This document shows positions 472-15,767 of a DNA stretch of 19,542 nucleotides, in pieces. Numbering within the stretch: the first letter of the stretch is position 1; every line of letters starts with the position of its first letter. A program made the translations under genes and the position numbers. Under the pieces are notes generated by a model. The model was not told the origin of the DNA and ran no database searches. It worked only from the letters and a program-made list of their open reading frames with translations. The DNA is from Candidatus Thorarchaeota archaeon (lineage in GTDB: Archaea; Asgardarchaeota; Thorarchaeia; Thorarchaeales; Thorarchaeaceae): contig PRDI01000128.1 of assembly GCA_003345595.1 (NCBI GenBank), forward strand, positions 1 to 19,542. Direction: 5' to 3'.

Positions 472-3400
472 ATGCAGCATGCGGCATACCGAGGATTCTA
501 CATACTTCTGATTGTTGTGCTACTGGTATTGCCAAGTACAGGCCTGGCTCCCGCCAGCTTGCCAGCCAATAGGTCGGCGTCCAGTGTATCACAGGCTCTC
601 CGACAGGAGAGCAATGGAGAAGAGCCCATCTCGAAAGTGACGCAGTCGAAAGCCGGCGTGTACAAGACAGCCCTAGCAGACTTCGTGCTCACTACGTCAG
701 ACGGCTTGTCGGTGGTACTGGGTGACAATGGTGTCATCAAGTCGGTGACGATAGACGGCCAGACGATATCCGCGGGTACAGTGGAGCCATTTGCTGTCAC
801 TGACGCTAACACTGTGACCAGTGCTTCGATGGGTGGGACAGTGCAACAGGTGGGTCAGACGGTTCAGCAGACTGCGGTCAGACTGCAGTATGATCTCAAC
901 TTGACGTATATTGTTGAGGACAGCTACATCGAGATTGTAATCGAGGCAGACAATCAGTTGACGTCGGACAGGGCCGCCGACCTGAGCCTCAGAATGCCGG
1001 TCAGTCGGACCGGAGCTTCTTGGTGGCAAGGCCCCAACAGAAAGATCACTGTTTCTCCCTCCGGGGATTACAAGTACACGCATGCAATCACCAGCGAAGT
1101 GCCCTTCGGACACAACCTAATGTCCCTCCTTCCCTATTCCACTGTTTGTGTTGGAGACAAGGCATTGTGCATGGCAGTACTCCTCGACTGCCCCTCCGTT
1201 TTCTTCATGGGATACAACGCTCCCAAGCAGCATTTCTACTGCAACTACTCCATTGGGTTCAGTGATGCTCAGCTGCCGAGTCCCGGATTCGTTCGACTTG
1301 GGCTTATTCTCTACAAGGTAGAAGCAAGATGGGGCATAAGATCGGCCGCGTCAAGATACTATGAGTTCTTTCCAAGTTGGTTCTCATCTGATCGTGCCGT
1401 AGGAGGAGCAGAAGCCATAGATGGACCGCAGGCTGTCGTGGAATCCGGCATGCTGCGATACAAACACGCCGATCTCATAGGGTTACGCTACCCGTACGGA
1501 GCTGGGAACCTCTACGGGTGGGCCACGCCGCAGGATGGCTTCATCAACTCGGCCTATGGGGTCGGGAGCCTGCCCTACGTGAATCCCATTGGCCTTGGAA
1601 TCCTCTGTACTCAGACGCAGTACAACGCCAGAGACTATCTCGGAATCCTCAATGAGTATGCATCGTCCGCAGCAGAGATCAACAAAACTGCAGCGGCCTT
1701 CATCCGGAACACGTTGATATACAACAGGACAGGCCATGCACAGGTGGCCTGGAGCGGCGGTGGAGGATCTTACAAGGCAGAGTTCAGGTGCAATCCGATT
1801 CTCATAGGACACTCTTTAGCAGGACCTGTAGAGCCAGTGAGATCTGGCGAGGCGGCTCTTGCACAAGGGACAAGCGATGACATCGTCGTCAGAGACTTGC
1901 TGGACTGGTTCTCGAAGTGGATTGTGATGCCTAGCTACGAAGACTATGACCCCTATGGTGCCGGCCCAGTCGGAATCTTCTTCGACAACGTGGGGTGCGG
2001 GTCAGAGGATCTTAACCTCACCCATCGAGCGTACACTGGTATGCCTCTGAGCTACGTCTACAACGGAACTACTAGGGTTCCAGTATCAGTTGTCGGAAGC
2101 TCGCAAGTTGAACTGCTTAGAGCATTCAGAGCAGGGATGATGGCAGACTTCTACGGCGACATGACCATATACGGCAACCTCGGAGTCGCGTGGCCACAAG
2201 GCATGTATCAGGCAATATACCTTGACGCAGGTCTACAGGAACAGACTCTCTACCATTGGGGGTATGGTGGTGACAACTTCTTCAATTGGGAGATCGGTCT
2301 AACCTCTCGCTTCGCAATGTATCAAAAACCCATCTCAGGCATGGACTACTGTGCTGGATCGCCTGCATGGACAATTGATTCAGCAATGCGTTATCTGCAC
2401 TATGGAATGTATCCACTCATGACAGCCAACTACAGCAGAGATGACGCCCTCTACCAGAAGTATGTGCCGGTAGCCGATAGGCTCCAGAACGCTGGGTGGG
2501 GACCGATGACGTTTGCGTCAGTCAGTAATACGGCCTCACACTACATGACTATCGAGCGCTTCGGTCACTGGTATGCAGATAGCCTCCACTTTACCGTCCG
2601 GAACTGGAACAAGACAGCAGTCGAAGATGTGACTATCAGTATTGAGGCAGACAGTCTGGCCATACAGACTCCCGGGATGTACATCAGGGAACTCGTGCAG
2701 GACGAACCCATCTCCTATGCCGTGGCGAGTAACAGAATAACATTCACCGTCGACTTCGCCGTCAACGAAACGAAAGTGTTCAGGCTCTACAAACCAGCCT
2801 ATTCAGTTGTCGACTTGGTCTACGATGTGCCGAACCCGCTCAGGCCCACAGAGGTTCAGCTGATTGCTGTTGTGTCGCAAAACGTTCCCACCGGGGTCAG
2901 CCTGCCCGACGTCCAGTTCACTGAGAATGGCAGTCCACTGGCCGATGTCCCAAGCCACCGTTTCAACTCAACTTATCTTGTCGCTGGAGTCATTGTCGAC
3001 TTGGGAGCAGGCTCTCATCTTGTGGGTGCGCAAGTCATAGATACGACCCATGTTGTCGAGCCGCTATCATTGTTCAGCGCAACCCAAGCCGGCACAGCGG
3101 ATATCTCAATTACTTTGCCTCTTGACTGGCAGTATCGTGCCACAATCGCTGTTGACACGATGGGAATAGATAGGAACAGCGGCTACGCTAGAGTACCAAT
3201 AGACTTCGGGCAGATCAGAAACAAGCTTGGCATAACCCCTCATGTCAGCCTCCAATCACTCAGGCTAGTGGACGAAAAGAATGAATCCGTTGTGATCCAG
3301 TGGTTGCCCGACCCTGCAGATTCGGAACTGGGCGTGCTCGTGTTCCCCTTGATTCAGACTCTTGGCAGTACTGGGCCCCGTATCTTTCACCTCTATTTCG

Positions 3401-4320
3401 ACGATAGAAGCGGAACGCTCAAGCCATCTTCTTTGGCCGGGACTCCCTTCATGAGAATCAGTCGATTTGGGATCCAAATGGCGGACTCGACGATGGTCTT
3501 GATGTCACCCCTTGGGGCCAATGTGGAGCGGATTCAGAAAACACCCAACTGGGTATCATTCGGATATACTCTAGCAACGCAGAACCTCACCTCGTGGGAA
3601 GGACATCTGGGAGCGTACGAGAGATTCGGCACTAAGGTCATGTCATATGGTCCCCATGTCGTCACACTGCTCTTCAGCCATGGAGTCAATGGAGCATACT
3701 CAGAGTACGGTGCACAGGTGAACGTGTACGCAAACGGAGTGATTGAAACATGGGTTTCCGTGAACTACTCTTCGGAAGTCATGGACACCTTCGCTCTCTC
3801 TAGGCGATATGAGTATTGGGCACCTAGGACCGGTTATTACATGGGCCCAGGGGGAGTAGTCGTGACGATTCCATACGGTCAAGAAGTGAACCCAGTCACT
3901 GACTACACTGAGCCCTGGTTCGGGCAGAGGGACAGCTCAGGCCGCTACTCGTTCACCGTCGTGCTGAGTTCAGGACCTGCAGTGACATGGATCAAGACAC
4001 AGTACAGCGATGCGGATCTCGTCGCTTTCACCACCAGGACCTTCGCAGTCGGTGAAACGGTCACATATCATATGGTCCATGTGAGTGGAGTAGGTAGTGA
4101 GGATAGCGCCATCGCGAACACGCGTGCTTGGCTCAACATGACGTACAGTATCAAACCCGAGGTGCTTCAAACCAAACCCGATTTCATGCCTATCATCGTC
4201 ATAGTCGGCGCGGGGCTAGCGGTAGCTGCAGTCATTGGAGGCAGCCTGATCAACAGAAGACGTTCCAAGCTGGTGCCCACTTCGAGCGAAACCGGCGCAA
4301 GTGACAAAACTGCTGCTTAG
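472..4320 (+). CDS. Large secreted, C-terminally membrane-anchored glycoprotein; putative glycoside-hydrolase-like core plus Ig-like, DUF2341-like and beta-sandwich domains
   Basis: N-terminal hydrophobic signal (FYILLIVVLLVL). C-terminal TM helix (IIVIVGAGLAVAAVIGGSLI) followed by NRRR. At least 16 N-x-S/T sequons. GIFFDN / IYGN / LDAGLQE strand-end motifs resemble a GH (beta/alpha)8 barrel. DWQYRATIAVD...VPIDF...SLRLVD resembles the DUF2341 N-terminus. The ORF is certain; the function is inferred. Confidence 0.6.
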   Translation: MQHAAYRGFYILLIVVLLVLPSTGLAPASLPANRSASSVSQALRQESNGEEPISKVTQSKAGVYKTALADFVLTTSDGLSVVLGDNGVIKSVTIDGQTISAGTVEPFAVTDANTVTSASMGGTVQQVGQTVQQTAVRLQYDLNLTYIVEDSYIEIVIEADNQLTSDRAADLSLRMPVSRTGASWWQGPNRKITVSPSGDYKYTHAITSEVPFGHNLMSLLPYSTVCVGDKALCMAVLLDCPSVFFMGYNAPKQHFYCNYSIGFSDAQLPSPGFVRLGLILYKVEARWGIRSAASRYYEFFPSWFSSDRAVGGAEAIDGPQAVVESGMLRYKHADLIGLRYPYGAGNLYGWATPQDGFINSAYGVGSLPYVNPIGLGILCTQTQYNARDYLGILNEYASSAAEINKTAAAFIRNTLIYNRTGHAQVAWSGGGGSYKAEFRCNPILIGHSLAGPVEPVRSGEAALAQGTSDDIVVRDLLDWFSKWIVMPSYEDYDPYGAGPVGIFFDNVGCGSEDLNLTHRAYTGMPLSYVYNGTTRVPVSVVGSSQVELLRAFRAGMMADFYGDMTIYGNLGVAWPQGMYQAIYLDAGLQEQTLYHWGYGGDNFFNWEIGLTSRFAMYQKPISGMDYCAGSPAWTIDSAMRYLHYGMYPLMTANYSRDDALYQKYVPVADRLQNAGWGPMTFASVSNTASHYMTIERFGHWYADSLHFTVRNWNKTAVEDVTISIEADSLAIQTPGMYIRELVQDEPISYAVASNRITFTVDFAVNETKVFRLYKPAYSVVDLVYDVPNPLRPTEVQLIAVVSQNVPTGVSLPDVQFTENGSPLADVPSHRFNSTYLVAGVIVDLGAGSHLVGAQVIDTTHVVEPLSLFSATQAGTADISITLPLDWQYRATIAVDTMGIDRNSGYARVPIDFGQIRNKLGITPHVSLQSLRLVDEKNESVVIQWLPDPADSELGVLVFPLIQTLGSTGPRIFHLYFDDRSGTLKPSSLAGTPFMRISRFGIQMADSTMVLMSPLGANVERIQKTPNWVSFGYTLATQNLTSWEGHLGAYERFGTKVMSYGPHVVTLLFSHGVNGAYSEYGAQVNVYANGVIETWVSVNYSSEVMDTFALSRRYEYWAPRTGYYMGPGGVVVTIPYGQEVNPVTDYTEPWFGQRDSSGRYSFTVVLSSGPAVTWIKTQYSDADLVAFTTRTFAVGETVTYHMVHVSGVGSEDSAIANTRAWLNMTYSIKPEVLQTKPDFMPIIVIVGAGLAVAAVIGGSLINRRRSKLVPTSSETGASDKTAA

Positions 4321-4982
4321 GATCCAGTGGATCGGTGCTTCTCCGTGGTCCGAGTTTGGCCACTCGAAGGACGCTTCGGACCGGCATTCGAAGTCGCTCT
4401 TGCAGCGTCCCCGGCTCCAGAATCCAAGACCATCGAAGTAATCGATGTGAATGGATCACGGACTCTCTGTCCAGTCTGAAGATTCACAACCACAACTCCG
4501 ACGTTTCGTCGCCCCACTGCTATCTCAAGCGGCGAGTCTGCTGGAGGAAGCGGGTAGTGCGACTCATCAATCACGAAAACAGCAGGCATCAGTTCGCCCC
4601 TGAAAGCGTCTGCTGACATGACGAACCGTGCTGCATCACGCATTGAGTCTTCTCTGCTGGCGTCGGCAATCACCACAAGCCCGTGGAATCTTTGGAAGTA
4701 GTCAGACGGGGGCAAGATGTTGTACAGGCTCCACACCCATGGCCCATGTAGCTCAATCATCAGGTCAACCGGGACAGCATTGTCACCAGAACCGAATCTG
4801 ACTCTCTTCTTCCACTCATCCTTTGGGAATCCATTAATCCTGTATCCGTCCGGCGGTTCCTTCTCGTCTATGACACTTCCTTCGGCGAATGACATGCAAA
4901 GACGGTACCCCATCCAGACATCGCCAGCCACCGTCACACGGATTTTCTTGGTCGGATTGCGCGATCTCGACACGATTCCCAC
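4317..4982 (-). CDS. Degenerate Rab/Ras-like small GTPase-fold protein (pseudo-GTPase)
   Basis: KIRVTVAGD, YFQRFHGLVVIAD, SREDSMRD, MPAVFVID and VNLQTGQRVRDPFTSI align in order with Rab-like segments. No GxxxxGKS/T, DxxG, NKxD or SAK motifs. GTG start lies 16 nt after the upstream stop. Its TAA overlaps the TAG of the convergent gene. Confidence 0.65.
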   Translation of the reverse strand: MGIVSRSRNPTKKIRVTVAGDVWMGYRLCMSFAEGSVIDEKEPPDGYRINGFPKDEWKKRVRFGSGDNAVPVDLMIELHGPWVWSLYNILPPSDYFQRFHGLVVIADASREDSMRDAARFVMSADAFRGELMPAVFVIDESHYPLPPADSPLEIAVGRRNVGVVVVNLQTGQRVRDPFTSITSMVLDSGAGDAARATSNAGPKRPSSGQTRTTEKHRSTGS

Positions 4983-4998
4983 CCCACTGCGCCAACAC

Positions 4999-5469
4999 TC
5001 AATGCACGGGCTTGCGCTTCGGTTCGTCTGGCAAGAGGTCTAGCACGATCCTGACTGCATCTTTGACGAAACCAGTGCACAGGTCGCGAAACACTCTTTT
5101 CTTTTCGGCTTCACTATGCTGCACTGGGTCCCCCACATCAAAGCCGATCAATTCCTTACAGATGCAGGTGTTGTGCTTCTCCCTGAACTCATCTAGAAAG
5201 CGCTTGCCAATCTCGTATGTGGCCTTCTTGTGATCTTGGAATTCAGGAACCCGTGTTCCTTCAATCACGCCAATGGCCATTATTGCGCCAGTAACCGCTC
5301 CGCAGGTCTGTCCCTCTCGGGCTATGCCGCCGCCAAACCCTGCAGCAACCTTGGTGGCCTCGTTGAAGTAGAGCTTCTTCTGTTCAAGGAGCGACCTGAA
5401 CACTGACTGGGCACAGTTGTGATCTGAGCTGAAGTACTTCAGGGCACTCGCTACGGCATCCTCTACCAT
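4999..5469 (-). CDS. C_GCAxxG_C_C family putative redox-active protein
   Basis: NCAQS, GFGGG, TCGAVTG, TCICKEL and LCTGFV motifs. ATG at 5469 is preferred because GGTG lies just upstream (the ORF track starts at GTG 5481). Confidence 0.9.
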   Translation of the reverse strand: MVEDAVASALKYFSSDHNCAQSVFRSLLEQKKLYFNEATKVAAGFGGGIAREGQTCGAVTGAIMAIGVIEGTRVPEFQDHKKATYEIGKRFLDEFREKHNTCICKELIGFDVGDPVQHSEAEKKRVFRDLCTGFVKDAVRIVLDLLPDEPKRKPVH

Positions 5470-5562
5470 CTCGAACACCACTTAACCGAACTAACAGTGT
5501 TACAACCGGAGATATGTGTCTTGCCAATTTAACCGCCCACTCCCAACGAACCTGATTCTGGT

Positions 5563-6063
5563 TCATTTCCTCGAGGTCTTTCGCTTGCTCAAGGCCATCT
5601 CAGACCACTTTGCCGCGAGTTCATCACGACGCGGCTTGTAGACCTGTTCAAAGAACCCGCTCTGTGACATGAGAGTATCTCTGTCGAATTCCTGCATGAG
5701 TTCAATGGCTTCTGTCCAAGCCTCATCGAATCTATCACCGAACCGAGATCTGATCCTGGCGTTGAACTCCTCGTCGGTCTGCGTTTTTCCTCCGAATGTG
5801 AAACGTAGTGTATCCGGCTCCGATTCCGCTTTGTATGCCTTCTCATCGCCAAGGAAGAACTCCGTTGTCGATTCTCTGGCCGGTGCCGCCCCGGCCTCTC
5901 CTCTAGTCTTGGACTGCGGAGTTGACGCGAAACCCCTCTTTGCGGCAGCATAGAAGATAGCACGGTTTAGACCCCAGCTTCTTGCGGACCCTTCGTCAAG
6001 ACCCAGAACATGAGCACGTGCCGCCTGAAGAAGAGCCATGACTTGGAATCGGCCGACCGACAT
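5563..6063 (-). CDS. Conserved archaeal-type hypothetical protein
   Basis: The protein-like sequence begins at MSVGRFQVMALLQAARA...SWGLNRAIFYAAAKRGF (ATG 6063). The 17 upstream codons in the ORF track look like a spurious extension. Confidence 0.75.
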   Translation of the reverse strand: MSVGRFQVMALLQAARAHVLGLDEGSARSWGLNRAIFYAAAKRGFASTPQSKTRGEAGAAPARESTTEFFLGDEKAYKAESEPDTLRFTFGGKTQTDEEFNARIRSRFGDRFDEAWTEAIELMQEFDRDTLMSQSGFFEQVYKPRRDELAAKWSEMALSKRKTSRK

Positions 6064-6173
6064 GCGAGGCAAGACCTCCAGACAGACTGTGTGCCAAAAC
6101 AGATTGCACTGCATACTGATGAGGCTTCCGCATGCTTTGGACGCCTACTTATCACTCTGAGCTGGTTGCAGTT

Positions 6174-6917
6174 TCAGTACTCTACTAACTTGGCCAGTTT
6201 CCTTGCAGCGGCAACTGTGAACTCAAGCTCCTTTGGCAAGGGAGCAATGCCTTTGAACCGTGTTCGTTCGACGAAGGCGATGAGCATTGACCGAAGCTCC
6301 TTCGGGTCCCATTGGGCCATCTTCTCAACTGTATCTACGCCTGCGTCATAGTATAGTCTGGCACGGATGGCCTTCACACCGAAGATGCGTGACAGGTCCG
6401 ACATCTTGACTAGTTCCAGAATCGTTTCAGAGGGCACGCCGATCTGCCTAGACAGGGTTTCACGAGCCTTCGCAGTTCTGCCAACATTCAACATCTCATC
6501 AGCGCTTCTTATTCCGACGGACGCGAGAATCGTGATGAAGTCTGGCTTCACACCCAAGAACTTTGCAAGCCTGAATGGGGGCCGGGTGATCATACCTTCT
6601 CTAAGTTGGGCAGTCAGACGCTCCATCTCCTTCATCTCAGAAAAGGCGAAGTAGTAACGCAATGCCCAAAGATGAGTTTTGGCCGATCCTTCCGATTCGC
6701 GCTCGACCTGCTCAACGAACTGCTCGAGGTCCGTCGGCTGAGCTCTCTCCAACGTTCTGCCGTCCCTTTGGGTTCTTAGGAACTCCCCGAATTCTGCGAC
6801 AATACGAACGACTTCATTCTGGACTCTCTCAGTTCGGCCGCCACGTTTCAGGTACTTTCTAAACTCAAACTCATTCAGTGGAATATCGTAGCCTCCAACA
6901 GCTTTGACGCCGATCAT
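6174..6917 (-). CDS. DUF4332-like protein with an N-terminal helical (integrase SAM-like) domain and HhH-like repeats; probable nucleic-acid binder
   Basis: C-terminal LASVGIRSADEML...ELVKMSDLSRIFGVKAIRARLYYDAGVDTVEKMAQWDPKEL pattern. N-terminal F..YL...DL..F...ALRYYF pattern. Confidence 0.7.
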   Translation of the reverse strand: MIGVKAVGGYDIPLNEFEFRKYLKRGGRTERVQNEVVRIVAEFGEFLRTQRDGRTLERAQPTDLEQFVEQVERESEGSAKTHLWALRYYFAFSEMKEMERLTAQLREGMITRPPFRLAKFLGVKPDFITILASVGIRSADEMLNVGRTAKARETLSRQIGVPSETILELVKMSDLSRIFGVKAIRARLYYDAGVDTVEKMAQWDPKELRSMLIAFVERTRFKGIAPLPKELEFTVAAARKLAKLVEY

Positions 6918-6967
6918 GATGCTGGTAGCAAAGAAGGGTTGGTCACTTCACCAGCACCTACGCTCAT
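6914..6967 (-). CDS. Putative 17-aa bridging mini-ORF (MSVGAGEVTNPSLLPAS)
   Basis: GGAGG at 6977-6973 (overlapping the pmbA stop) lies 5 nt before ATG 6967. Its TGA overlaps the next ATG (ATGA). Too short for the ORF track. Confidence 0.35.
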   Translation of the reverse strand: MSVGAGEVTNPSLLPAS

Positions 6968-6976
6968 GCCCGCCTC

Positions 6977-8371
6977 CTAGCCTACGACGGTAAACCCATC
7001 GAAGACAAGGCTCGGCGAACGTACTCCGTACAGGCCCAGAGTGGCATTACTCCCGACACCATTGAGTTTCTTGAACCCATCATAGTAGTTGCCAGCAACA
7101 GACAAAGGCTGGAGGGGATAGCTTCTGCTCCCCTTCTCAATCAGATATACCCGGTTTGCCACAACGGAGAACTGACCCGTGCTCATCGTGCTATGGAAGA
7201 TGCCCATCGGATCGTCAGCAATCAGTATTCCCTTTCCATCAATTGACGAAACGAGTTGGTCATGAGTCTTTGTCCCGGGCGAAACCTCAAGGGCTTTGGC
7301 AGAGATTCCCGTCACGCTTTCATATGGAATTGGAGTCCCGAAAGGACCTCCGCCACGAGAGCAGTTGCCTGTCGACCCGACGCCAAACAATCGACCATAG
7401 TATGTGTTGAACAAGAAACCCTTCAGAATACCATTCTCGACTATGACATTTCTCATCTGGGGGTGGCCTTCGGCATCGACTGCTTCAGTGCCAAGACCAT
7501 CAGGTCGTTGGCCCTCGTCCACAAGTGTGAATCCCTCACCTGCAATGGCAGCTCCCATCATGTCACACAGAGGTGACGTGTGTTCCACCACTGCCCTTCC
7601 ATGTGCAGATTGACCTAGGCTCGAGAGAACGTAAGCCGCAGCAGCCTCAGGGCCCCATAGAGTGGGCAAGACTGATGTCAGTTCCAACTTCTTCGCATGA
7701 TGCTGTCCAACAGCCTCACTTGCCGCCTCTTTGCCTAGGCCCTCAGTGTGCAGGAGGCGATCACAAGCAGCATCATGCCTGTATGCTGTCTTCCGTTCAT
7801 CACCGTCAATCGACATGACGTACACCAAGCACCGATTCGACCCTGATCTTGATGCCTGCTGGACCCCACGAGAGTTTGCCACAGCGTAGCTGTCCCAAAG
7901 GACGCGACACTCAGCGGTCACGACTTTCACACGTGGATCAACGCTGCGAGCTTCTTTGGTCATATCTTGACAGTGCCGCATGAGCTCATCTACTTCGACG
8001 CCGAGTATGTTTCTGTTGAACTTGCATTCACGTCCGGCCTTCTTTGGATCGCAGAAGCCGCTGAACTTATCATCCTCCGCTGAAACGCTATTGACGACTG
8101 AGAGAGATTCTTCGACAGCCTTCTTGACCCGGGCCGTGGAGATTCCACTTGCACACGCAAAGCCCAACCGCTTTCCCTTGGCTACACGAACTGCGCATCC
8201 TGCAGCCACGCCGTCTTTTGCCGTAACCATGCCTTGATCGAGTTCAACACGTGAAACAGAGCCATAGTGCACATAGACCTCGAACTCAGCAGAACTGTCC
8301 TGCTTAGCTGCGAACTTCAGGCCGGTGTCGGCCACAGACAGTAGTTCATCCTTGATGCTCTCGTATTCCAT
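6977..8371 (-). CDS. pmbA: TldD/PmbA family protein, PmbA/TldE-type non-catalytic subunit
   Basis: AVRV..GKRLGFA, VDAEGHP, ENGILKGFLFN, STGN and TGQFSV motifs. No HExxxH. Directly downstream of tldD. Confidence 0.88.
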   Translation of the reverse strand: MEYESIKDELLSVADTGLKFAAKQDSSAEFEVYVHYGSVSRVELDQGMVTAKDGVAAGCAVRVAKGKRLGFACASGISTARVKKAVEESLSVVNSVSAEDDKFSGFCDPKKAGRECKFNRNILGVEVDELMRHCQDMTKEARSVDPRVKVVTAECRVLWDSYAVANSRGVQQASRSGSNRCLVYVMSIDGDERKTAYRHDAACDRLLHTEGLGKEAASEAVGQHHAKKLELTSVLPTLWGPEAAAAYVLSSLGQSAHGRAVVEHTSPLCDMMGAAIAGEGFTLVDEGQRPDGLGTEAVDAEGHPQMRNVIVENGILKGFLFNTYYGRLFGVGSTGNCSRGGGPFGTPIPYESVTGISAKALEVSPGTKTHDQLVSSIDGKGILIADDPMGIFHSTMSTGQFSVVANRVYLIEKGSRSYPLQPLSVAGNYYDGFKKLNGVGSNATLGLYGVRSPSLVFDGFTVVG

Positions 8372-8390
8372 TCTTGTTCATCCCCCAGTT

Positions 8391-9815
8391 CTATGCCTTT
8401 CCTCCGAACGTCACGTTGCCTATGACAATCTTGGGTCCTCCAAGTCCTACAGGCAAGGGGGACTGGTCGCCCTTTCCGCATCCACCAAAGTACCCTGATT
8501 GGATATGTAGGTCTCTCGTAGCACCCTCGACTCGAGTCAATAGTTCAAGTATGTTACCTGATAGAGCCACCTCCCTCAATGGATACTTGATCTCGCCATG
8601 TTCAACCCAGTAGCCTCGAACAGCAATGAAGAGAAACGAACCATTCCCCTCGACCTGTCCTCCCGATGATTGTATGGCGTAGACTCCCGTGTCTAGCTTC
8701 TCTAGTGCTTCTTGTTCGGAAAGGTTTCCGGGCATGAAGTACGTGTTGGTCATTCTGACAATGGGTGGAAAGACGTAGCTCACTGCTCGGCTGTTGCCGG
8801 TAGGCCTTTCAGAGAGCCGCTCTGCGGTCCCACGATTGTGTAAGTAGTGCAGGAGAACACCTTTGTCGAGAACCGTTGTCGAACTCCCCCTGACGCCCTG
8901 ATCGTCGAACGGCACCCACAGTCCACCAGTCTTTCTGATGTCCGGAAGCCCAGAGTCCAGAATAGATGCCTCTGGAGTGCCCAAGCGACTTCCAATCTTG
9001 TTAGTAAGAGGTGAGGCACCGGTGACAACGAAGTCCGCTTCACTCAGATGACCGAAGGATTCATGCGCCAGCACCCCTGCAAGCCTCTCATCAATCAGTG
9101 CCCGAAGATTCCCTGCGGGGCAGGGCTGGGCTTTGAGCTGCTCCTTAGCTCTGCTGCCGGCTTCACCCCCGACATCTTCTGGTGTGTTCCCTTTACTCTC
9201 GAAGTACTCGAGACCGAATGTTCCTCCGTTACCCTCTAGGCCGATTACCAGTGCTCCCGAGTCCGCCTTTGAGATGACGAAGCAACGCATGTCCGTCACT
9301 AAGTAGTTCCAGTCAACCGAACTCCCTTCGCTGTTGGTGAAAATCTTTCTGCCATGAAGCTCACCATACAGACCACGAACATTCTTAATATTGGCTCCGT
9401 GCTCTCGGGCCGCTTCAATGGTCCGATTCACGAGGTCTACCTTGTAAGCGAGGTCACGTTCGCTCGGGTGTATTTTGACTCGCAGTGTATCCGATGGAGC
9501 GCTCTTTGAAGGACTGCCTTTGGTGATCGGCAACCTGAGTTCGGCTGCGGGTGCAGAAGCCCTTGCCATCTTGAAGGCCTTCTGTGCGGCAGCCCGAACT
9601 TCCTTCATCGTGGAGCTCGCTGTGAACGAATAGCCTGACACTCCCTCAACGTAGCAGGTTATCCCGACACCCATTCGTGACTTCACCTGAATGTCCTTCC
9701 AAGTGTCGTCCGTCCTTTCGAGCGTCCGTAGAGTAAGGTCATCATACCGTGCGTCTACGAACTGCGCTCCGAGCTTTTCACCATACTCAACAGCTTTCTG
9801 CAGGACTTCGATCAA
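8391..9815 (-). CDS. tldD: TldD metalloprotease, catalytic subunit
   Basis: HESFGH (HExxGH) zinc motif, FDDQG, RMTNTY and C-terminal GGCGK metal-ligand Cys. TTG start with a GGAGAGAGG RBS. Confidence 0.92.
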   Translation of the reverse strand: MIEVLQKAVEYGEKLGAQFVDARYDDLTLRTLERTDDTWKDIQVKSRMGVGITCYVEGVSGYSFTASSTMKEVRAAAQKAFKMARASAPAAELRLPITKGSPSKSAPSDTLRVKIHPSERDLAYKVDLVNRTIEAAREHGANIKNVRGLYGELHGRKIFTNSEGSSVDWNYLVTDMRCFVISKADSGALVIGLEGNGGTFGLEYFESKGNTPEDVGGEAGSRAKEQLKAQPCPAGNLRALIDERLAGVLAHESFGHLSEADFVVTGASPLTNKIGSRLGTPEASILDSGLPDIRKTGGLWVPFDDQGVRGSSTTVLDKGVLLHYLHNRGTAERLSERPTGNSRAVSYVFPPIVRMTNTYFMPGNLSEQEALEKLDTGVYAIQSSGGQVEGNGSFLFIAVRGYWVEHGEIKYPLREVALSGNILELLTRVEGATRDLHIQSGYFGGCGKGDQSPLPVGLGGPKIVIGNVTFGGKA

Positions 9816-9886: not shown

Positions 9887-10435
9887 TCAGCTCATGAACT
9901 CCGCGACCTCTTCCAGAGGCTTTCTAGTCATGGGCAGTGGCGAATTGGCTGGCCATCCAATGCTGACTGCGGCCGTCAACAGCCATGACTTGCCGAAATA
10001 GGCTCTGACTGCATCCGAGGCGTAGAAGATATCTCCTATCCACAAAGATCCTAGTCCAAGACTGTATGCCTTGAGTAGCATGTTCTGGATCGCAGCTGCC
10101 ACGCCATGGACCTCGGTTTCCCACCCTCTGGCACCTGCATTCCAGACGATGATTAGAACAGGGGCATGCTCCATGATATCACACGAACCGTATGCTGAAC
10201 CCATCGCAGGACTTCCGATACTGCGCTCGGTCTTCCTGAGCTCTTTTCGAAAGGAATTTGTGAACTTGCTTTTTGCCGCGCCCGTCAAGACTGTGAAACG
10301 CCATTGTTGCTCGTTCTTTGCTGAGGGCGCCCATGTCGCAGCTACAAGCACCTGCTTGACAAGGTCCATAGGTACCTCTCGTGTATAGTACTCCCTGATG
10401 CTACGTCGTCCTACGATTGCATCACCTAGTTCCAT
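9887..10435 (-). CDS. Nitroreductase family FMN-dependent oxidoreductase
   Basis: RRSIR, WAPSAKNEQQW, AAIQNMLLKAYSLGLGSLWIG, IGWP and RKPLEE motifs. Confidence 0.92.
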   Translation of the reverse strand: MELGDAIVGRRSIREYYTREVPMDLVKQVLVAATWAPSAKNEQQWRFTVLTGAAKSKFTNSFRKELRKTERSIGSPAMGSAYGSCDIMEHAPVLIIVWNAGARGWETEVHGVAAAIQNMLLKAYSLGLGSLWIGDIFYASDAVRAYFGKSWLLTAAVSIGWPANSPLPMTRKPLEEVAEFMS

Positions 10436-12088: not shown

Positions 12089-12970
12089 ATGTTGGAGTAT
12101 GAAGGGTCAATATGGAGGCCACCCAGTGAAGCGCAGAGTCTGATTCTGCAGGCGACCGTTGGTTGTTCGCACAACGCCTGCACCTACTGCGTGTCCTACA
12201 AGGGAAAGCACTTCAGAGTGCGAGGAGTTGAGGGAATCAAGTCAGACCTAGCGCATTTGACAGCCATGCAGAAACGCACAGTCAAGAGAGTCTTCCTGGC
12301 AGATGGAAATGCTCTCACGATTGACACTGATGAGATGCTGGAGATACTTGCTGTTCTGAAGCAAGAGATACCGAGTCTTGAGAGGGTGGGCGTCTACGGA
12401 TACGCAAAAGATGTCCGGAGTAAGTCCATAGAGGAAATGAGGCAGATTCATTCATCTGGACTGGGTATTGCTTACTTTGGACTTGAAACCGGAGATGATG
12501 AGATACTCAGAGACGTACGCAAAGGCGTCAGCTCCGAAGAAAACGTTGCGGCCTGCAAGAAGATCCGCGAAGCTGGAATTCCAGTTTCCGTCACAATCAT
12601 TCTTGGTTTAGGCGGAAAAGGACTCTCCGAACGTCACGCAGTTCATACAGCAAGAGCACTGAACGAAATCGATCCAGAGTACGTGGGGGCATTAACCCTT
12701 ATGATACCGAGAGGCACCCCACTGTTTGACATGGTTCAACAAGGCGAGTTCGAGCCAATGGAGCCCTTTGACACGTTGAGAGAGCTCAGGCTACTCGTGG
12801 AAAACCTCGAACTAAGCGAATGTGTGTTCAGAACGAATCATGCGTCCAACTACTTCCCAATTGGAGGCACACTCAGCCACGACAAGGAGGCAATGCTCTC
12901 TGTGATTTCCAGAGTGGTATCTAGTGAGGACGAGTCCACTCTCAGACCGGGCTACCTCAGAGGATTATAG
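12089..12970 (+). CDS. Radical SAM protein (stand-alone COG1032-like, CX4CX2C)
   Basis: YEG.IWRPPSEAQSLILQATVGCSHNACTYC, VFLADGNAL, YFGLETG and FRTNHASNY motifs. Confidence 0.9.
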   Translation: MLEYEGSIWRPPSEAQSLILQATVGCSHNACTYCVSYKGKHFRVRGVEGIKSDLAHLTAMQKRTVKRVFLADGNALTIDTDEMLEILAVLKQEIPSLERVGVYGYAKDVRSKSIEEMRQIHSSGLGIAYFGLETGDDEILRDVRKGVSSEENVAACKKIREAGIPVSVTIILGLGGKGLSERHAVHTARALNEIDPEYVGALTLMIPRGTPLFDMVQQGEFEPMEPFDTLRELRLLVENLELSECVFRTNHASNYFPIGGTLSHDKEAMLSVISRVVSSEDESTLRPGYLRGL

Positions 12971-13513: not shown

Positions 13514-13828
13514 TCACAGAGAAACAATCATTTCGTACTTGTCCATTGCAAGGTCCACCATGTCCCCAAAGTCGACCAATGAAACGCCTGGAGTCAAGCG
13601 ACCTTCCAAGCCTCTTTCCTGAACGTGTGGCCTAGCCGCGTACACGGGCACGCCCAGCTTCATAACACCCTTCGAGCAGGGGTTGCCCTTGTCCGCCTGG
13701 AAGACACCGTCTTGAACCAGCAAGAGCCCTACCTCGTTTCCGCTCTTCTTAATGCCGTCAACTACTTCGAAGAGACTCTTACATTCGTCTGAGATCCAGA
13801 TGAGAACCTTCACCAACACCACCTTCAT
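13514..13828 (-). CDS. dsrH: DsrH/TusB family sulfur-relay subunit
   Basis: LLLVQDGV, VYA...VQERGL and VDFGDMVDL motifs. Its ATG overlaps the upstream TGA (TGATG). Confidence 0.8.
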   Translation of the reverse strand: MKVVLVKVLIWISDECKSLFEVVDGIKKSGNEVGLLLVQDGVFQADKGNPCSKGVMKLGVPVYAARPHVQERGLEGRLTPGVSLVDFGDMVDLAMDKYEMIVSL

Positions 13829-14178
13829 CAGAATGTTACTACAACCTCGTTCTGTGTCAGGATTTGCCCAACCTTGAGAGGATCGAGGATTTCGACACCC
13901 GGAATAAGCTCCCCGAGATTGATTCCGCGTTCTTCGAGTGACTTCTTGCTCACACAGACGCGGCCGCCAAACCCTTCGTATGTAGCCTTGAACATCTTGA
14001 TCGGTCGTTCATCCATAGCCTTCAACAATGAATAGACCCCGTCACCCACGAACAACATTGTCGGCTGGTGATCCATTCCGAACATGCCAACAGCCGCCCG
14101 CCAGCCCTCGAAGTTGATGATCTTTCCAAAAGGCTTGCTTCTAATCAAAACCAAGACCTTGCGCTCTTTGAACTCCAT
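13828..14178 (-). CDS. dsrF: DsrF/TusC family sulfur-relay subunit
   Basis: VLVLIRSKPFG...EG.R, LFVGDGVYSL and SLEERGI motifs. Confidence 0.8.
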   Translation of the reverse strand: MEFKERKVLVLIRSKPFGKIINFEGWRAAVGMFGMDHQPTMLFVGDGVYSLLKAMDERPIKMFKATYEGFGGRVCVSKKSLEERGINLGELIPGVEILDPLKVGQILTQNEVVVTF

Positions 14179-14189
14179 CTAGTATCCCT

Positions 14190-14555
14190 CTACAGCGTTA
14201 GCGTAATGAACCTGTCACATTCTCCAATAATCTGCGCGAATTCTGTCAGACTACTGACACCTACGCCACTGATGAAATCGCTCCCGTCCTGTGCGAATCC
14301 CCTTGCAGCTGTGCAGAGGCCACACGCCTGGAACTCCACTCCTGCGTCTGCAAGCTCCTGAAACATCTGATCCATCGGTCGTTCCGGGTCTGGGTCCTGT
14401 TTGAGCTTGGCATTATTGACGCCATCCACAAAAAGGAATACCTTCACCTTGTGACCCTTGCCGATGGCAGCCTTTGCCAACTCATAGAGCGTGCGACTGT
14501 TTTCGAATGTGTATGGCCCCGTCAACAAAAGGAGTCCAAGAGTCTTGCTCTGCAT
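14190..14555 (-). CDS. dsrE: DsrE/TusD family sulfurtransferase subunit
   Basis: TGPYT, VFLFVDGV and ACGLCTAARG motifs. The first Cys of the CxxC is residue 78, the same number as the catalytic Cys78 of DsrE/TusD. GAGGT RBS. Confidence 0.85.
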   Translation of the reverse strand: MQSKTLGLLLLTGPYTFENSRTLYELAKAAIGKGHKVKVFLFVDGVNNAKLKQDPDPERPMDQMFQELADAGVEFQACGLCTAARGFAQDGSDFISGVGVSSLTEFAQIIGECDRFITLTL

Positions 14556-14696: not shown

Positions 14697-15767
14697 ATGA
14701 ATAGGATAGCTGTGACCTACGAAACAAAGGACGGAGCAATCAGACAGATTGAGGTCGATACCGACGGTCGGATTGTAGACCTCAGTCGCCTGAGTGCTGT
14801 GAGCATCAACCTGACTCCTCTTGCCAATGCAGTGGGCATCGAGGAGCTGCAGCTCGCCTCGAACAAACTCAAGTCCATCGACCTCAGACCGCTGAGCAAA
14901 TGCGCGCGTCTTCAAGTCTTGAATCTGACGAAGAATAAAATCCAGCAACTGAGCCTACGAGGGCTCGAGGGGTGTATAGCTCTCAGAGAGCTGAACCTCG
15001 GTGGAAACGAGCTGAAGGTCCTGGACCTGTCACCCTTGTCCAGCTGCATGAACCTACAGAGGTTGAGGATGTTCGGCAATCAGATCGAGAAACTTGATCT
15101 CAAGCCGCTCTCCAAGTGCGACAAGCTTGAATACTTGGAGCTCGAGACCAATCATATCGAGTCCATAGACCTCGGGCCTCTGAAGAAATGTGTGAACTTG
15201 GTACAACTTAATCTCATGCATAATTCTCTGACATCTGTTGACCTGTCGGCACTGAAGCAGTGTCGCAAGCTCAAGTTCCTGTATCTTCATCACAATGCAC
15301 TCGGGTCGATAGACCTGGGCCCAGTCGAGCAGTGTGCAGACCTGACAATACTCAGAATAGGGAGCAACGAGATCAGGAACATTGACCTCGAACCGCTTGC
15401 CAAGTGTGCGAACCTGAGGCGACTTGAGCTGGCGATGAATGCTCTACAGACGCTGGACCTATCTCCCTTGGCAAGTTGTGCCGAACTGCGAGCACTCGAT
15501 GTAGCTGGAAATCATCTTACATCGATAGATCTCTCCCCTCTCTCGGACTGCAAGAATCTCGAGGAACTGTACTTGTTCAGCGATCATCCTCAGGAGAACC
15601 AGTTCACCGAGGTGGACGTGTCAGCACTCTTCGCATGCACGAACCTTGAAGATCTAGGAATGCCGGAATCTGTCGACCTGGTTGCTGAATCGTCACTGAA
15701 AGAACAAGAAAACATTCCCACTGCATTGCAGGAACTGATTGATGAAGCAAGAATATCTTGGACCTGA
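14697..15767 (+). CDS. Leucine-rich repeat protein with 24-aa Cys-containing repeats
   Basis: Ten consecutive 24-aa units (consensus IDLxPLxxCxxLxxLxLxxNxLxx), one 29-aa unit and one terminal partial unit. No signal peptide. Confidence 0.95.
   Translation: MNRIAVTYETKDGAIRQIEVDTDGRIVDLSRLSAVSINLTPLANAVGIEELQLASNKLKSIDLRPLSKCARLQVLNLTKNKIQQLSLRGLEGCIALRELNLGGNELKVLDLSPLSSCMNLQRLRMFGNQIEKLDLKPLSKCDKLEYLELETNHIESIDLGPLKKCVNLVQLNLMHNSLTSVDLSALKQCRKLKFLYLHHNALGSIDLGPVEQCADLTILRIGSNEIRNIDLEPLAKCANLRRLELAMNALQTLDLSPLASCAELRALDVAGNHLTSIDLSPLSDCKNLEELYLFSDHPQENQFTEVDVSALFACTNLEDLGMPESVDLVAESSLKEQENIPTALQELIDEARISWT

What the first reader, a model, noticed from the sequence alone, without database searches (positions are those of the whole stretch)
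4317..4982. Rab-like pseudo-GTPase: fold signature kept, all nucleotide-binding motifs lost
Seen, in the order expected for a Rab/Ras fold: KIRVTVAGD (cf. KxxxxGD before the P-loop), YFQRFHGLVVIAD (cf. YYRGAHGIIVVYD), SREDSMRDAARFV (cf. TxxESFxxxxxW), MPAVFVIDESH (cf. PxxLVGNKxD) and VNLQTGQRVRDPFTSI (cf. ETSAKTGxNVxxxFxxI), then a disordered ~35-aa tail like a Rab hypervariable region but with no Cys for prenylation. G1 is shortened to GDVWMG with no GKS/T. G3 DxxG reads ELHG, G4 NKxD reads DESH and G5 SAK reads NLQ. Established: Asgard archaea have expanded small GTPases, and eukaryotes use nucleotide-free pseudoGTPases as scaffolds (e.g. CENP-M, p190RhoGAP pG domains). Inference: an intact, probably co-transcribed archaeal pseudoGTPase that standard annotation would call hypothetical.
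Basis: partly seen in the sequence, partly recalled or inferred. Interest (0 to 1): 0.72.

Follow-up and report, generated by a model that had tools for sequence, protein, structure and literature searches.

The report
Thorarchaeal Ras-fold pseudoGTPase family
This gene of an uncultured Asgard archaeon (Thorarchaeota) encodes a protein with the fold of a Ras/Rab molecular switch, but every residue needed to hold GTP has been replaced; the same holds for its whole, strongly conserved family, so it is most likely a nucleotide-free adaptor, a kind of protein so far described by name only in eukaryotes.

Summary
It belongs to a discrete family of about 118 sequence clusters. Full-length members were found in 26 of 60 genomes of one Thorarchaeota family and in 0 of 191 other genomes of the phylum.

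A family profile matches Rab1/Ras (E 4e-10) and the genome's own canonical Ras-like GTPases (HHalign 97.6%). The AlphaFold2 model (pLDDT 83) superposes on N-Ras and Rabs at Z 18-20.

No member has the P-loop Lys; among the 100 clusters readable there it is Phe or Tyr in 99 and Leu in one. DxxGQ reads ELHGP, and NKxD and SAK are gone. These replacements are themselves nearly invariant, and dN/dS is 0.03-0.2 (window core 0.13). The 33-aa tail is lineage-specific, disordered and neutral (dN/dS about 1), so it is not a Rab-like anchor.

One correction: G1 is not shortened. It keeps the canonical length.

Best reading: a nucleotide-independent Ras-fold adaptor (class-i pseudoGTPase) whose remodelled P-loop/switch face is the working surface. 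The partner is unknown, and nucleotide binding could not be tested here. Novelty: a new variant of a known kind.

The parts
4317..4973 (-). CDS of the Ras-fold pseudoGTPase (218 aa from GTG 4973; alternative GTG 4982 gives 221 aa; stop 4317-4319)
   Evidence: Open frame. The identical 218-aa protein is on record as P0002. Family alignments. Core dN/dS 0.13.
4978..4985 (-). G-rich Shine-Dalgarno-like stretch 4-5 nt before GTG 4973
   Evidence: Read from the sequence. Relatives carry GGAGG 7-9 nt before their start codon. This is inference only.
4902..4925 (-). G1 (P-loop) equivalent GDVWMGYR, residues 17-24: canonical length, Lys to Tyr, Ser/Thr to Arg, bulky residues at the Ras Gly12/Gly13 positions
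   Evidence: At the Lys position, 100 clusters read F 52, Y 47, L 1, K 0.
4806..4829 (-). Switch I / start of beta2 equivalent (FPKDEWKK); family motif WPxDEWxK, with no Thr35-type residue conserved
   Evidence: Invariant or nearly invariant P50, D52, E53, W54, K56.
4680..4754 (-). G3 / switch II equivalent, residues 74-98: ELHGPWVW..LY....P.DYF.RF.G. This is the most conserved stretch of the family, with a 4-residue insertion relative to Rab1.
   Evidence: ELHGPWVW occurs in 109 of 115 clusters. E74, H76, G77, W79, W81, P89, Y92 and R95 are invariant. Strand beta3 ends at residue 75.
4557..4568 (-). G4 equivalent DESH in place of NKxD
   Evidence: Profile alignment to Rab1 and family alignment.
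4476..4484 (-). G5 equivalent NLQ in place of SAK; the following TGxxV..xF of Rab-type helix alpha5 is kept
4320..4418 (-). Disordered Ser/Thr/Gly/Arg/Lys-rich C-terminal tail (residues 186-218), without Cys
   Evidence: pLDDT 47-60. dN/dS 0.98 over 30 codons. Median tail in the family is 9 residues; only the window's subclade has 36-39.
4999..5481 (-). Upstream gene on the same strand, 17-26 nt away: C_GCAxxG_C_C putative redox-active protein. Probably co-transcribed with the pseudoGTPase in this genus.
   Evidence: PF09719, E 4.5e-29. The same order is seen in two congeneric genomes.
5563..9815 (-). Rest of the same-strand array: TldD/PmbA pair (8391-9815, 6977-8371), DUF4332 protein (6174-6917) and a 183-aa protein of no known family (5563-6114)
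   Evidence: A TldD/PmbA pair lies upstream of the family gene in 8 further loci.

Best explanation
The gene encodes a member of a Thorarchaeota-restricted family that descends from the Asgard Ras-like (RasL) small GTPases. The family kept the G-domain fold and lost every determinant of guanine-nucleotide and Mg2+ binding. It is most likely a class-i pseudoGTPase: a monomeric, nucleotide-free Ras-fold module that cannot switch.

The former P-loop / switch I / switch II face has been rebuilt into a new, almost invariant, aromatic-rich surface (WPxDEWxK, ELHGPWVWxLY, PxDYFRRF). That surface is proposed to bind a partner protein constitutively, as CENP-M and the p190RhoGAP pG domains do in eukaryotes.

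Shown: fold, homology, family-wide motif replacement, purifying selection, taxonomic range. Inferred: absence of nucleotide binding, and that the rebuilt face is the functional surface. Unknown: the partner.
For: Homology. The family profile matches Rab1A at E 3.6e-10. Three of nine members reach Pfam Ras. HHalign against the genome's own canonical RasL set gives 97.6%.

Fold. pLDDT 83 with the canonical strand/helix order. Foldseek finds K-Ras, Rab1 and Thor-Rab. VIA Z is 16-20 to Ras/Rab/Rho, above Arf (13.7), Rag (14.1) and MglA (12.7).

Motif loss. 0 of 118 clusters have GxxxxGK[ST]. The Lys position is F or Y in 99 of 100. ELHGPWVW is nearly invariant. NKxD and SAK are replaced in all 36 aligned members.

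Selection. dN/dS is 0.13 for the window core and 0.03-0.2 in eight other pairs.

Where the conservation lies. [quoted passage not shown]

Discrete family. Members score at least 200 bits on the family profile, while canonical GTPases of 251 genomes of the phylum score at most 47.5 bits and only over the C-terminal half. The family is one clade against the RasL paralogues, SH-aLRT 100.

The genome keeps about 25 PF00071 matches, 12 of them strong, so this is an added, specialised paralogue.

Contigs of an RNA library (wetland metatranscriptome) cover 407 of the 666 nt at 100% identity. This is a weak hint of expression only.
Against: Nucleotide binding was not measured, and loss of motifs is an inference from canonical GTPases.

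In 72 of 100 clusters the Ser at the Ras Ser17 position is kept, and the Glu at the Asp57 position and the Gly at Gly60 are invariant. A divalent-cation or phosphate-type site could therefore persist.

No partner is identified. Gene neighbourhoods differ between clades, and most members have 75-165 nt of upstream spacer with their own SD and, in several loci, a terminator-like hairpin before it. Neighbours therefore give little functional guidance.

AF2 confidence in the switch regions does not show that the pocket is filled, and no coordinates were available to inspect it.
Confidence: 0.72

Rival explanations
1. The protein is still a nucleotide-dependent switch (or NTP-binding protein) that holds GTP, ATP or another phosphorylated ligand in a non-canonical way through the rebuilt P-loop. 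An aromatic residue would stack on the base, and Ser plus Glu would keep the Mg2+.
For: The P-loop keeps its canonical length and both flanking Gly residues in most members. Ser is kept at the Ser17 position in 72 of 100 clusters, and Glu74 and Gly77 are invariant. The strongest conservation lies exactly around the former nucleotide site.
Against: The P-loop Lys is absent in every member. Acidic or bulky residues occupy the Gly12/Gly13 positions (GDEELG..; GDVWMG.. in the window). NKxD and SAK, which hold the guanine base, are both gone in all members. In the window's own protein the Ser is Arg.
Confidence: 0.12
2. The former Mg2+/phosphate site has become a site for a transition metal or another small ligand (invariant Glu74 and His76, with Ser/Asp nearby). 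The family would act in metal homeostasis, for example as a sensor or chaperone connected with Feo iron uptake and the DtxR-type repressor.
For: In the largest clade (21 of 36 aligned members) the gene lies 75-155 nt downstream of FeoA, split FeoB, a FeoC-like gene and a DtxR-like repressor, all on the same strand. The other clades sit beside metallopeptidases: a TldD/PmbA pair and an M32 carboxypeptidase. About 24 of 118 clusters end in a Cys-x-Cys motif. His76, at the Ras Ala59 position, would point to the gamma-phosphate site (established Ras geometry; inference).
Against: The feo context is confined to one clade, so it counts as one evolutionary event. The gene has its own spacer and SD. 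Asp18 is simply inherited from canonical GDxxVGK[ST] P-loops. Cys26 maps to a buried alpha1 position. No coordinates were available to test the geometry. The window's own locus has no feo genes.
Confidence: 0.08
3. The ORF is a decaying, non-functional remnant of a Ras-like gene, or an annotation artefact.
For: No Pfam or NCBIfam hit for the window protein. The window's subclade sits on a long branch.
Against: Intact frames in 35 species-level loci and 118 clusters. dN/dS 0.03-0.2. The replaced motifs are themselves invariant. The fold is predicted with confidence.
Confidence: 0.01

Closest known systems
Asgard Ras-like (RasL) small GTPases, e.g. Thorarchaeota SMTZ1-45 'Thor-Rab' (PDB 7EZB; PMC10933270)
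   Same: Same fold and the same lineage. The window's genome holds about 12 strong canonical copies. Foldseek matches 7ezb at E 3e-10, and the profile-profile match is 97.6%. Like Thor-Rab, the family has no Cys-bearing C-terminal extension for prenylation.
   Different: Thor-Rab binds GDP/GTP with a classical P-loop (PMC10933270). Here G1-G5 are all replaced, switch II carries a 4-residue insertion, and the family forms its own clade on a long stem.
CENP-M (eukaryotic kinetochore pseudoGTPase; cited in PMC10211241)
   Same: A small stand-alone Ras/Rab-like G-domain that has lost its nucleotide-binding motifs and is thought to act purely as an assembly scaffold. This is the closest functional analogy (class i: no nucleotide binding).
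   Different: Eukaryotic, with a known partner complex (CENP-H/I/K). No sequence relationship beyond the superfamily was tested or seen here. CENP-M was not among the listed structural matches; this does not exclude similarity.
p190RhoGAP pG1/pG2 pseudoGTPase domains (Stiegler & Boggon 2017, cited in PMC10211241)
   Same: A G-domain fold with degenerate G motifs and no nucleotide binding, retained under selection as a protein-interaction module. The N-terminal p190 GTPase domain 6d4g appears at Z 12.8.
   Different: These are domains inside a large eukaryotic multidomain protein, whereas this is a single-domain archaeal protein.
Unannotated or divergent Asgard Ras-superfamily sequences in Vargova et al. 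(bioRxiv 10.1101/2024.02.28.582541)
   Same: That survey reports 124 Asgard Ras-superfamily sequences left unannotated. It describes them as rapidly evolving derivatives or as taxon-specific novel groups 'yet to be investigated'. This family fits that description.
   Different: The family is not named or described there. Its signature motif was not found in the held part of their tables, but that file is cut, so it cannot be said whether members were listed.

Membership tests
Ras superfamily small G domain (fold and homology level) | Six-stranded sheet with five helices in the order b1-a1-b2-b3-a2-b4-a3-b5-a4-b6-a5 | tested here: met
   DSSP of the AF2 model. Foldseek TM about 0.8 to K-Ras and Rab. 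VIA Z 19.8, 158 residues at 2.3 A, to N-Ras.
Ras superfamily small G domain (fold and homology level) | Statistically significant sequence-profile similarity to Ras/Rab | tested here: met
   Family profile against Rab1A, E 3.6e-10. HHalign against the genome's own RasL paralogues, 97.6%, E 3e-12. The window protein alone does not reach Pfam PF00071; 3 of 9 relatives do.
Functional small GTPase (molecular switch) | G1 P-loop GxxxxGK[ST] | tested here: not met
   The window reads GDVWMGYR. 0 of 118 clusters are canonical, and Lys is replaced by F or Y in 99 of 100.
Functional small GTPase (molecular switch) | G3 DxxG(Q) with the Mg-linked Asp and the catalytic Gln | tested here: not met
   ELHGP: Asp to Glu, Gln to Pro, Gly kept. 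Nearly invariant in the family.
Functional small GTPase (molecular switch) | G4 [NT]KxD and G5 SAK guanine-base contacts | tested here: not met
   DESH and NLQ in the window; VD[RK]S and xLN in most relatives.
Functional small GTPase (molecular switch) | Binds and hydrolyses GTP | not testable with these tools
   Needs purified protein (mant-nucleotide, ITC, HPLC).
Rab family proper | C-terminal Cys motif for geranylgeranylation after a hypervariable linker | tested here: not met
   No Cys in the 33-aa tail. The tail is lineage-specific and neutral. A different subclade ends in CGC[TSAV] directly after alpha5.
Rab family proper | Specific phylogenetic affinity to Rabs and RabF motifs | tested here: inconclusive
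   Rab1 is the best sequence match, but Ras, Rab and Rho are tied structurally. YFRRF resembles the YYRGA of RabF4, and the other RabF motifs are replaced. Asgard RasL are not specifically Rabs according to 10.1101/2024.02.28.582541.
PseudoGTPase, class i (no nucleotide binding) | G-domain fold, loss of the G motifs, and retention under purifying selection | tested here: met
   fold; motifs; dN/dS 0.03-0.2.
PseudoGTPase, class i (no nucleotide binding) | Experimentally nucleotide-free | not testable with these tools
   Inference from the loss of Lys16, Ser17 (in the window), NKxD and SAK.

The most novel reading that the evidence does not exclude
The rebuilt P-loop/switch pocket is not merely dead. 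It would be a new ligand site (invariant Glu-x-His at the old Mg2+/gamma-phosphate position, Ser/Asp nearby, a C-terminal Cys-x-Cys in one subclade) that senses or hands over a divalent metal. That would make this a Ras-fold metal sensor or chaperone working with the Feo / DtxR iron-uptake genes next to which most family members lie: a G domain re-purposed from nucleotide to metal.
Probability: 0.08. Interest if true: 0.8.

Novelty: new variant of a known kind. Interest (0 to 1): 0.5.

Why it matters
Asgard archaea are studied for their eukaryote-like expansion of small GTPases. So far these have been treated as switches, and the divergent ones were set aside as unclassified.

This family shows that in at least one Asgard lineage a Ras-like paralogue was converted into a strongly conserved, motif-less G domain. 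That is the same evolutionary route that produced eukaryotic pseudoGTPases such as CENP-M and the p190RhoGAP pG domains. No paper in the searched library links pseudoGTPases with Asgard archaea.

It gives a small, soluble-looking and well-defined target (about 185 aa in most members) for asking two questions: what a nucleotide-free Ras fold does in a prokaryote, and which surface it uses.

Its narrow range (a few genera of one family) means it says little about the ancestor of eukaryotes.

Tried and rejected
(1) Homodimer test. Complex prediction with two copies of residues 1-190 and alignment A3 scored 0.00, verdict 'no answer'. It is neither support for nor evidence against dimerisation.

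Contexts were taken from the genome search and genome-contig loci instead.

(3) Partner from gene context. Two conserved contexts were found: FeoA, FeoB, FeoC and DtxR upstream in one clade; a TldD/PmbA pair upstream with a convergent M32 carboxypeptidase in the others. Each maps to one or two clades. The gene usually has 75-165 nt of spacer, its own GGAGG, and in five loci a hairpin plus T-run after PmbA. I therefore do not claim a partner.

(4) HHalign places the family's VWEL on the canonical IWDL and so shifts G3. I rejected that register because the model ends beta3 at Glu74-Leu75, which puts ELHG on DxxG.

(5) Vargova et al. tables. The accession KXH74129 and the signature motif were not found, but the stored file is cut, so no conclusion follows.

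(6) RNA evidence. Only contigs of one metatranscriptome library cover parts of the gene. DNA carry-over cannot be excluded, and parts without cover mean nothing.

(7) Apparent N-terminally truncated members (L017, L022, L024; database forms of 126-158 aa) are not truncated. L024 reads through from a CTG at the usual start position behind GGAGG.

(8) No coordinates of the model could be read in the script box, so the pocket geometry was not inspected.
Full report
**The object.**
The minus-strand ORF 4317..4982 is open. It gives 221 aa from GTG 4982. The identical protein on record starts three codons later at GTG 4973 (218 aa, P0002), behind a G-rich SD-like stretch. I use the 218-aa numbering below.

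Its stop overlaps by 4 nt the stop of a convergent 1282-aa gene (472..4320). It lies 17-26 nt behind a C_GCAxxG_C_C gene, at the end of a six-gene same-strand array: a TldD/PmbA pair, a DUF4332 protein, a 183-aa protein of no known family, C_GCAxxG_C_C, and this gene. Neither Pfam nor NCBIfam recognises the protein.

A single-sequence search of PDB already puts Rab1A and Arf1 among the best, non-significant, matches, at the right positions.

With relatives the signal becomes significant. A nine-member profile matches Rab1A at E 3.6e-10 and lists 562 small-GTPase chains, and three of the nine members reach Pfam Ras on their own. A 36-member profile aligns to 11 canonical Ras-like GTPases of the same genome with HHalign probability 97.6%, E 3e-12, over 169 columns from beta1 to alpha5.

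**Fold.**
AlphaFold2 on the 36-row alignment gives pLDDT 83 and pTM 0.77, with the canonical b1-a1-b2-b3-a2-b4-a3-b5-a4-b6-a5 order. Foldseek against PDB returns only small GTPases, including K-Ras, Rab1 and Thorarchaeota Rab 7ezb, at E about 1e-10 and target-normalised TM about 0.8.

An independent scan of 48,161 representative chains gives Z 19.8 to N-Ras (158 residues, 2.3 A). Z is 16-18.8 to M-Ras, Rab27, Rab28, Rab32 and RhoA. That is above Arf6 (13.7), RagD (14.1) and MglA (12.7). The protein is therefore a derivative of the Ras/Rab/Rho-like branch, called 'RasL' in Asgard surveys (10.1101/2024.02.28.582541), rather than specifically a Rab.

**Who has it.**
Record titles of 35 species-level loci name Candidatus Thorarchaeota almost throughout. 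The rest read 'uncultured archaeon' (once 'uncultured bacterium') or, once, Promethearchaeota. A profile search of 5.8 billion proteins finds 115 clusters. Every organism named by a source is Thorarchaeota, apart from one Promethearchaeota entry and one entry labelled subsurface metagenome. Nearly all are called 'hypothetical protein', and one is 'GTPase domain-containing protein'.

In 251 genomes of the phylum the profile score is bimodal. 26 genomes, all from the window's taxonomic family (26 of 60), have a full-length match of at least 200 bits. Everything else, including 191 genomes of other families, scores at most 47.5 bits and only over the C-terminal half; those are ordinary small GTPases. 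A single-sequence HMMER scan of 1.84 billion representatives found only the family itself.

On a tree the family is one clade against the canonical paralogues (SH-aLRT 100). It has three subclades, and the window sits in a fast-evolving one. The window's genome has one copy, beside about 25 PF00071 matches.

**The motifs.**
- G1 is not shortened. GDVWMGYR occupies the same eight positions as GxxxxGK[ST].
- Among the 118 clusters examined none has a canonical G1. Of the 100 that can be read there, the Lys position is Phe (52), Tyr (47) or Leu (1). The Ser/Thr position is Ser in 72 but Arg in the window's subclade.
- Most members read GDEELG[FY]S, which puts acidic residues at the Ras Gly12 and Gly13 positions.
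- G3 DxxGQ is ELHGP, and ELHGPWVW occurs in 109 of 115 clusters. NKxD and SAK are replaced in all 36 aligned members.
- The replacements are themselves conserved. 23 of the 26 invariant or nearly invariant columns lie in the P-loop, switch I (WPxDEWxK) and switch II (ELHGPWVWxLY, PxDYFRRF) equivalents.
- Switch II is four residues longer than in Rab1. Fittingly, the best structural match is an N-Ras with a switch II duplication.

**Selection.**
Against the 79%-identical orthologue, dN/dS is 0.13 for the 185-codon core and 0.98 for the 30-codon tail. Eight other pairs across the family give 0.03-0.2.

The tail is predicted disordered. It exists only in the window's subclade: the median length after alpha5 is 9 residues, against 36-39 here. 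So the core is a maintained, working protein, and the tail is a lineage-specific, unconstrained appendage, not a counterpart of the Rab hypervariable region.

**Context.**
Two neighbourhoods recur.

- In the largest clade the gene follows FeoA, a split FeoB (G-domain protein plus membrane protein), a 162-aa protein, a FeoC-like protein and a DtxR-type repressor, all on the same strand.
- In the other clades, the window's included, it follows a TldD/PmbA pair and, in most of these loci but not in the window, faces an M32 carboxypeptidase.

Each context maps to one or two clades. The upstream spacer is usually 75-165 nt with a GGAGG before the start, and five loci have a hairpin plus T-run after PmbA. 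Most members therefore look like separate transcription units. Only in the window's genus is the gap short enough (17-48 nt) to suggest co-transcription, with the C_GCAxxG_C_C gene. I draw no partner from this.

**Expression.**
The DNA is found in wetland metagenomes of several studies. Contigs of one wetland metatranscriptome library cover 4177-4428, 4476-4626 and 4839-4990 at 100% identity, as well as parts of the DUF4332 and TldD genes. This is a weak hint of transcription, because DNA in the library cannot be excluded.

**Mechanism.**
Established knowledge of Ras-type G domains says that Lys16 and Ser17 hold the beta-phosphate and Mg2+, that Asp57 and Thr35 hold the Mg2+, and that NKxD and SAK hold the guanine. 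With Lys16, NKxD and SAK gone in every member, and bulky or acidic residues at positions 12 and 13, canonical nucleotide binding is very unlikely (inference).

The face that normally reports the nucleotide state carries the family's strongest conservation and three invariant Trp. The most economical reading is a frozen, constitutive interaction surface on a nucleotide-free G domain, that is, a class-i pseudoGTPase acting as adaptor (confidence 0.72).

The rivals are a non-canonical nucleotide or phosphate binder (0.12), a metal or small-ligand site tied to iron uptake (0.08), and a decaying gene (0.01, refuted by the conservation).

**Comparison and novelty.**
It works like CENP-M and the p190RhoGAP pG domains (PMC10211241). 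It descends from the Asgard RasL GTPases, whose canonical Thorarchaeota member has been crystallised with GDP (PMC10933270). It fails every motif test for a functional GTPase and the Cys-tail test for a Rab.

No paper in the searched library mentions pseudoGTPases together with Asgard archaea, and the two papers that mention them with archaea are general reviews. The large Asgard GTPase survey left 124 sequences unannotated, describing them as rapidly evolving derivatives or taxon-specific groups still to be studied. I rate this a new variant of a known kind, of moderate interest. The family is cleanly defined and conserved, but narrow in range and without a known partner.

Noticed in passing
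L043:5977-6525 and about 24 of 118 family clusters (e.g. P0055 = KXH74129.1 of Thorarchaeota SMTZ1-45): One subclade of the family ends, directly after helix alpha5, in ..EEICGC[TSAV]. This is a conserved C-terminal Cys-x-Cys-x, reminiscent of Rab CXC/CaaX lipidation motifs or of a metal-binding CxC. The window's protein has no such motif.
   Followed up: partly
L012, L015, L020, L021, L030, L032, L033, L043 (upstream 4-5 kb of the family gene): Thorarchaeota feo cluster with FeoB split into a 271-aa G-domain protein and a 439-aa membrane protein. It is followed by a 162-aa protein of no Pfam family, a FeoC-like protein and a DtxR-type repressor; the pseudoGTPase gene comes next, on the same strand.
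   Followed up: partly
L024:5960-6060 (also L017, L022, L005): Family genes that gene callers truncate to 126-158 aa read through from a CTG at the position where relatives have GTG, TTG or ATG, 7 nt behind GGAGG. The family uses mostly non-ATG starts, and in these loci possibly CTG.
   Followed up: partly
L018, L028, L037, L038, L040 (about 60-120 nt upstream of the family gene): A GC-rich hairpin followed by a T-run directly after the PmbA gene, then a conserved ATCGAAT..CTTTTCAG block. This looks like a terminator followed by the family gene's own promoter region.
   Followed up: no
window 472-4320 (+): A 1282-aa protein with a signal peptide and a C-terminal membrane anchor and no Pfam or NCBIfam hit, convergent with the pseudoGTPase gene and overlapping it by 4 nt at the stops. 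A congeneric genome (L006) has the same arrangement. In another genus (L004, L005) a 421-448-aa secreted, anchored protein with weak beta-propeller hits follows the family gene on the same strand.
   Followed up: no
window 5563-6114 (-): A 183-aa protein of no known family, conserved in the genus (L003, L006), sits between the DUF4332 gene and the C_GCAxxG_C_C gene in the same-strand array.
   Followed up: no
window 13514-14555 (-) and 14697-15767 (+): A DsrE / DsrE-F / DsrH-like trio (sulfur-relay TusBCD type) lies next to a 356-aa leucine-rich-repeat protein. Further on are a radical SAM protein (12089-12970), a nitroreductase (9887-10435), a methyltransferase, a thioredoxin-fold protein and a pyridine-nucleotide disulfide oxidoreductase.
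   Followed up: no
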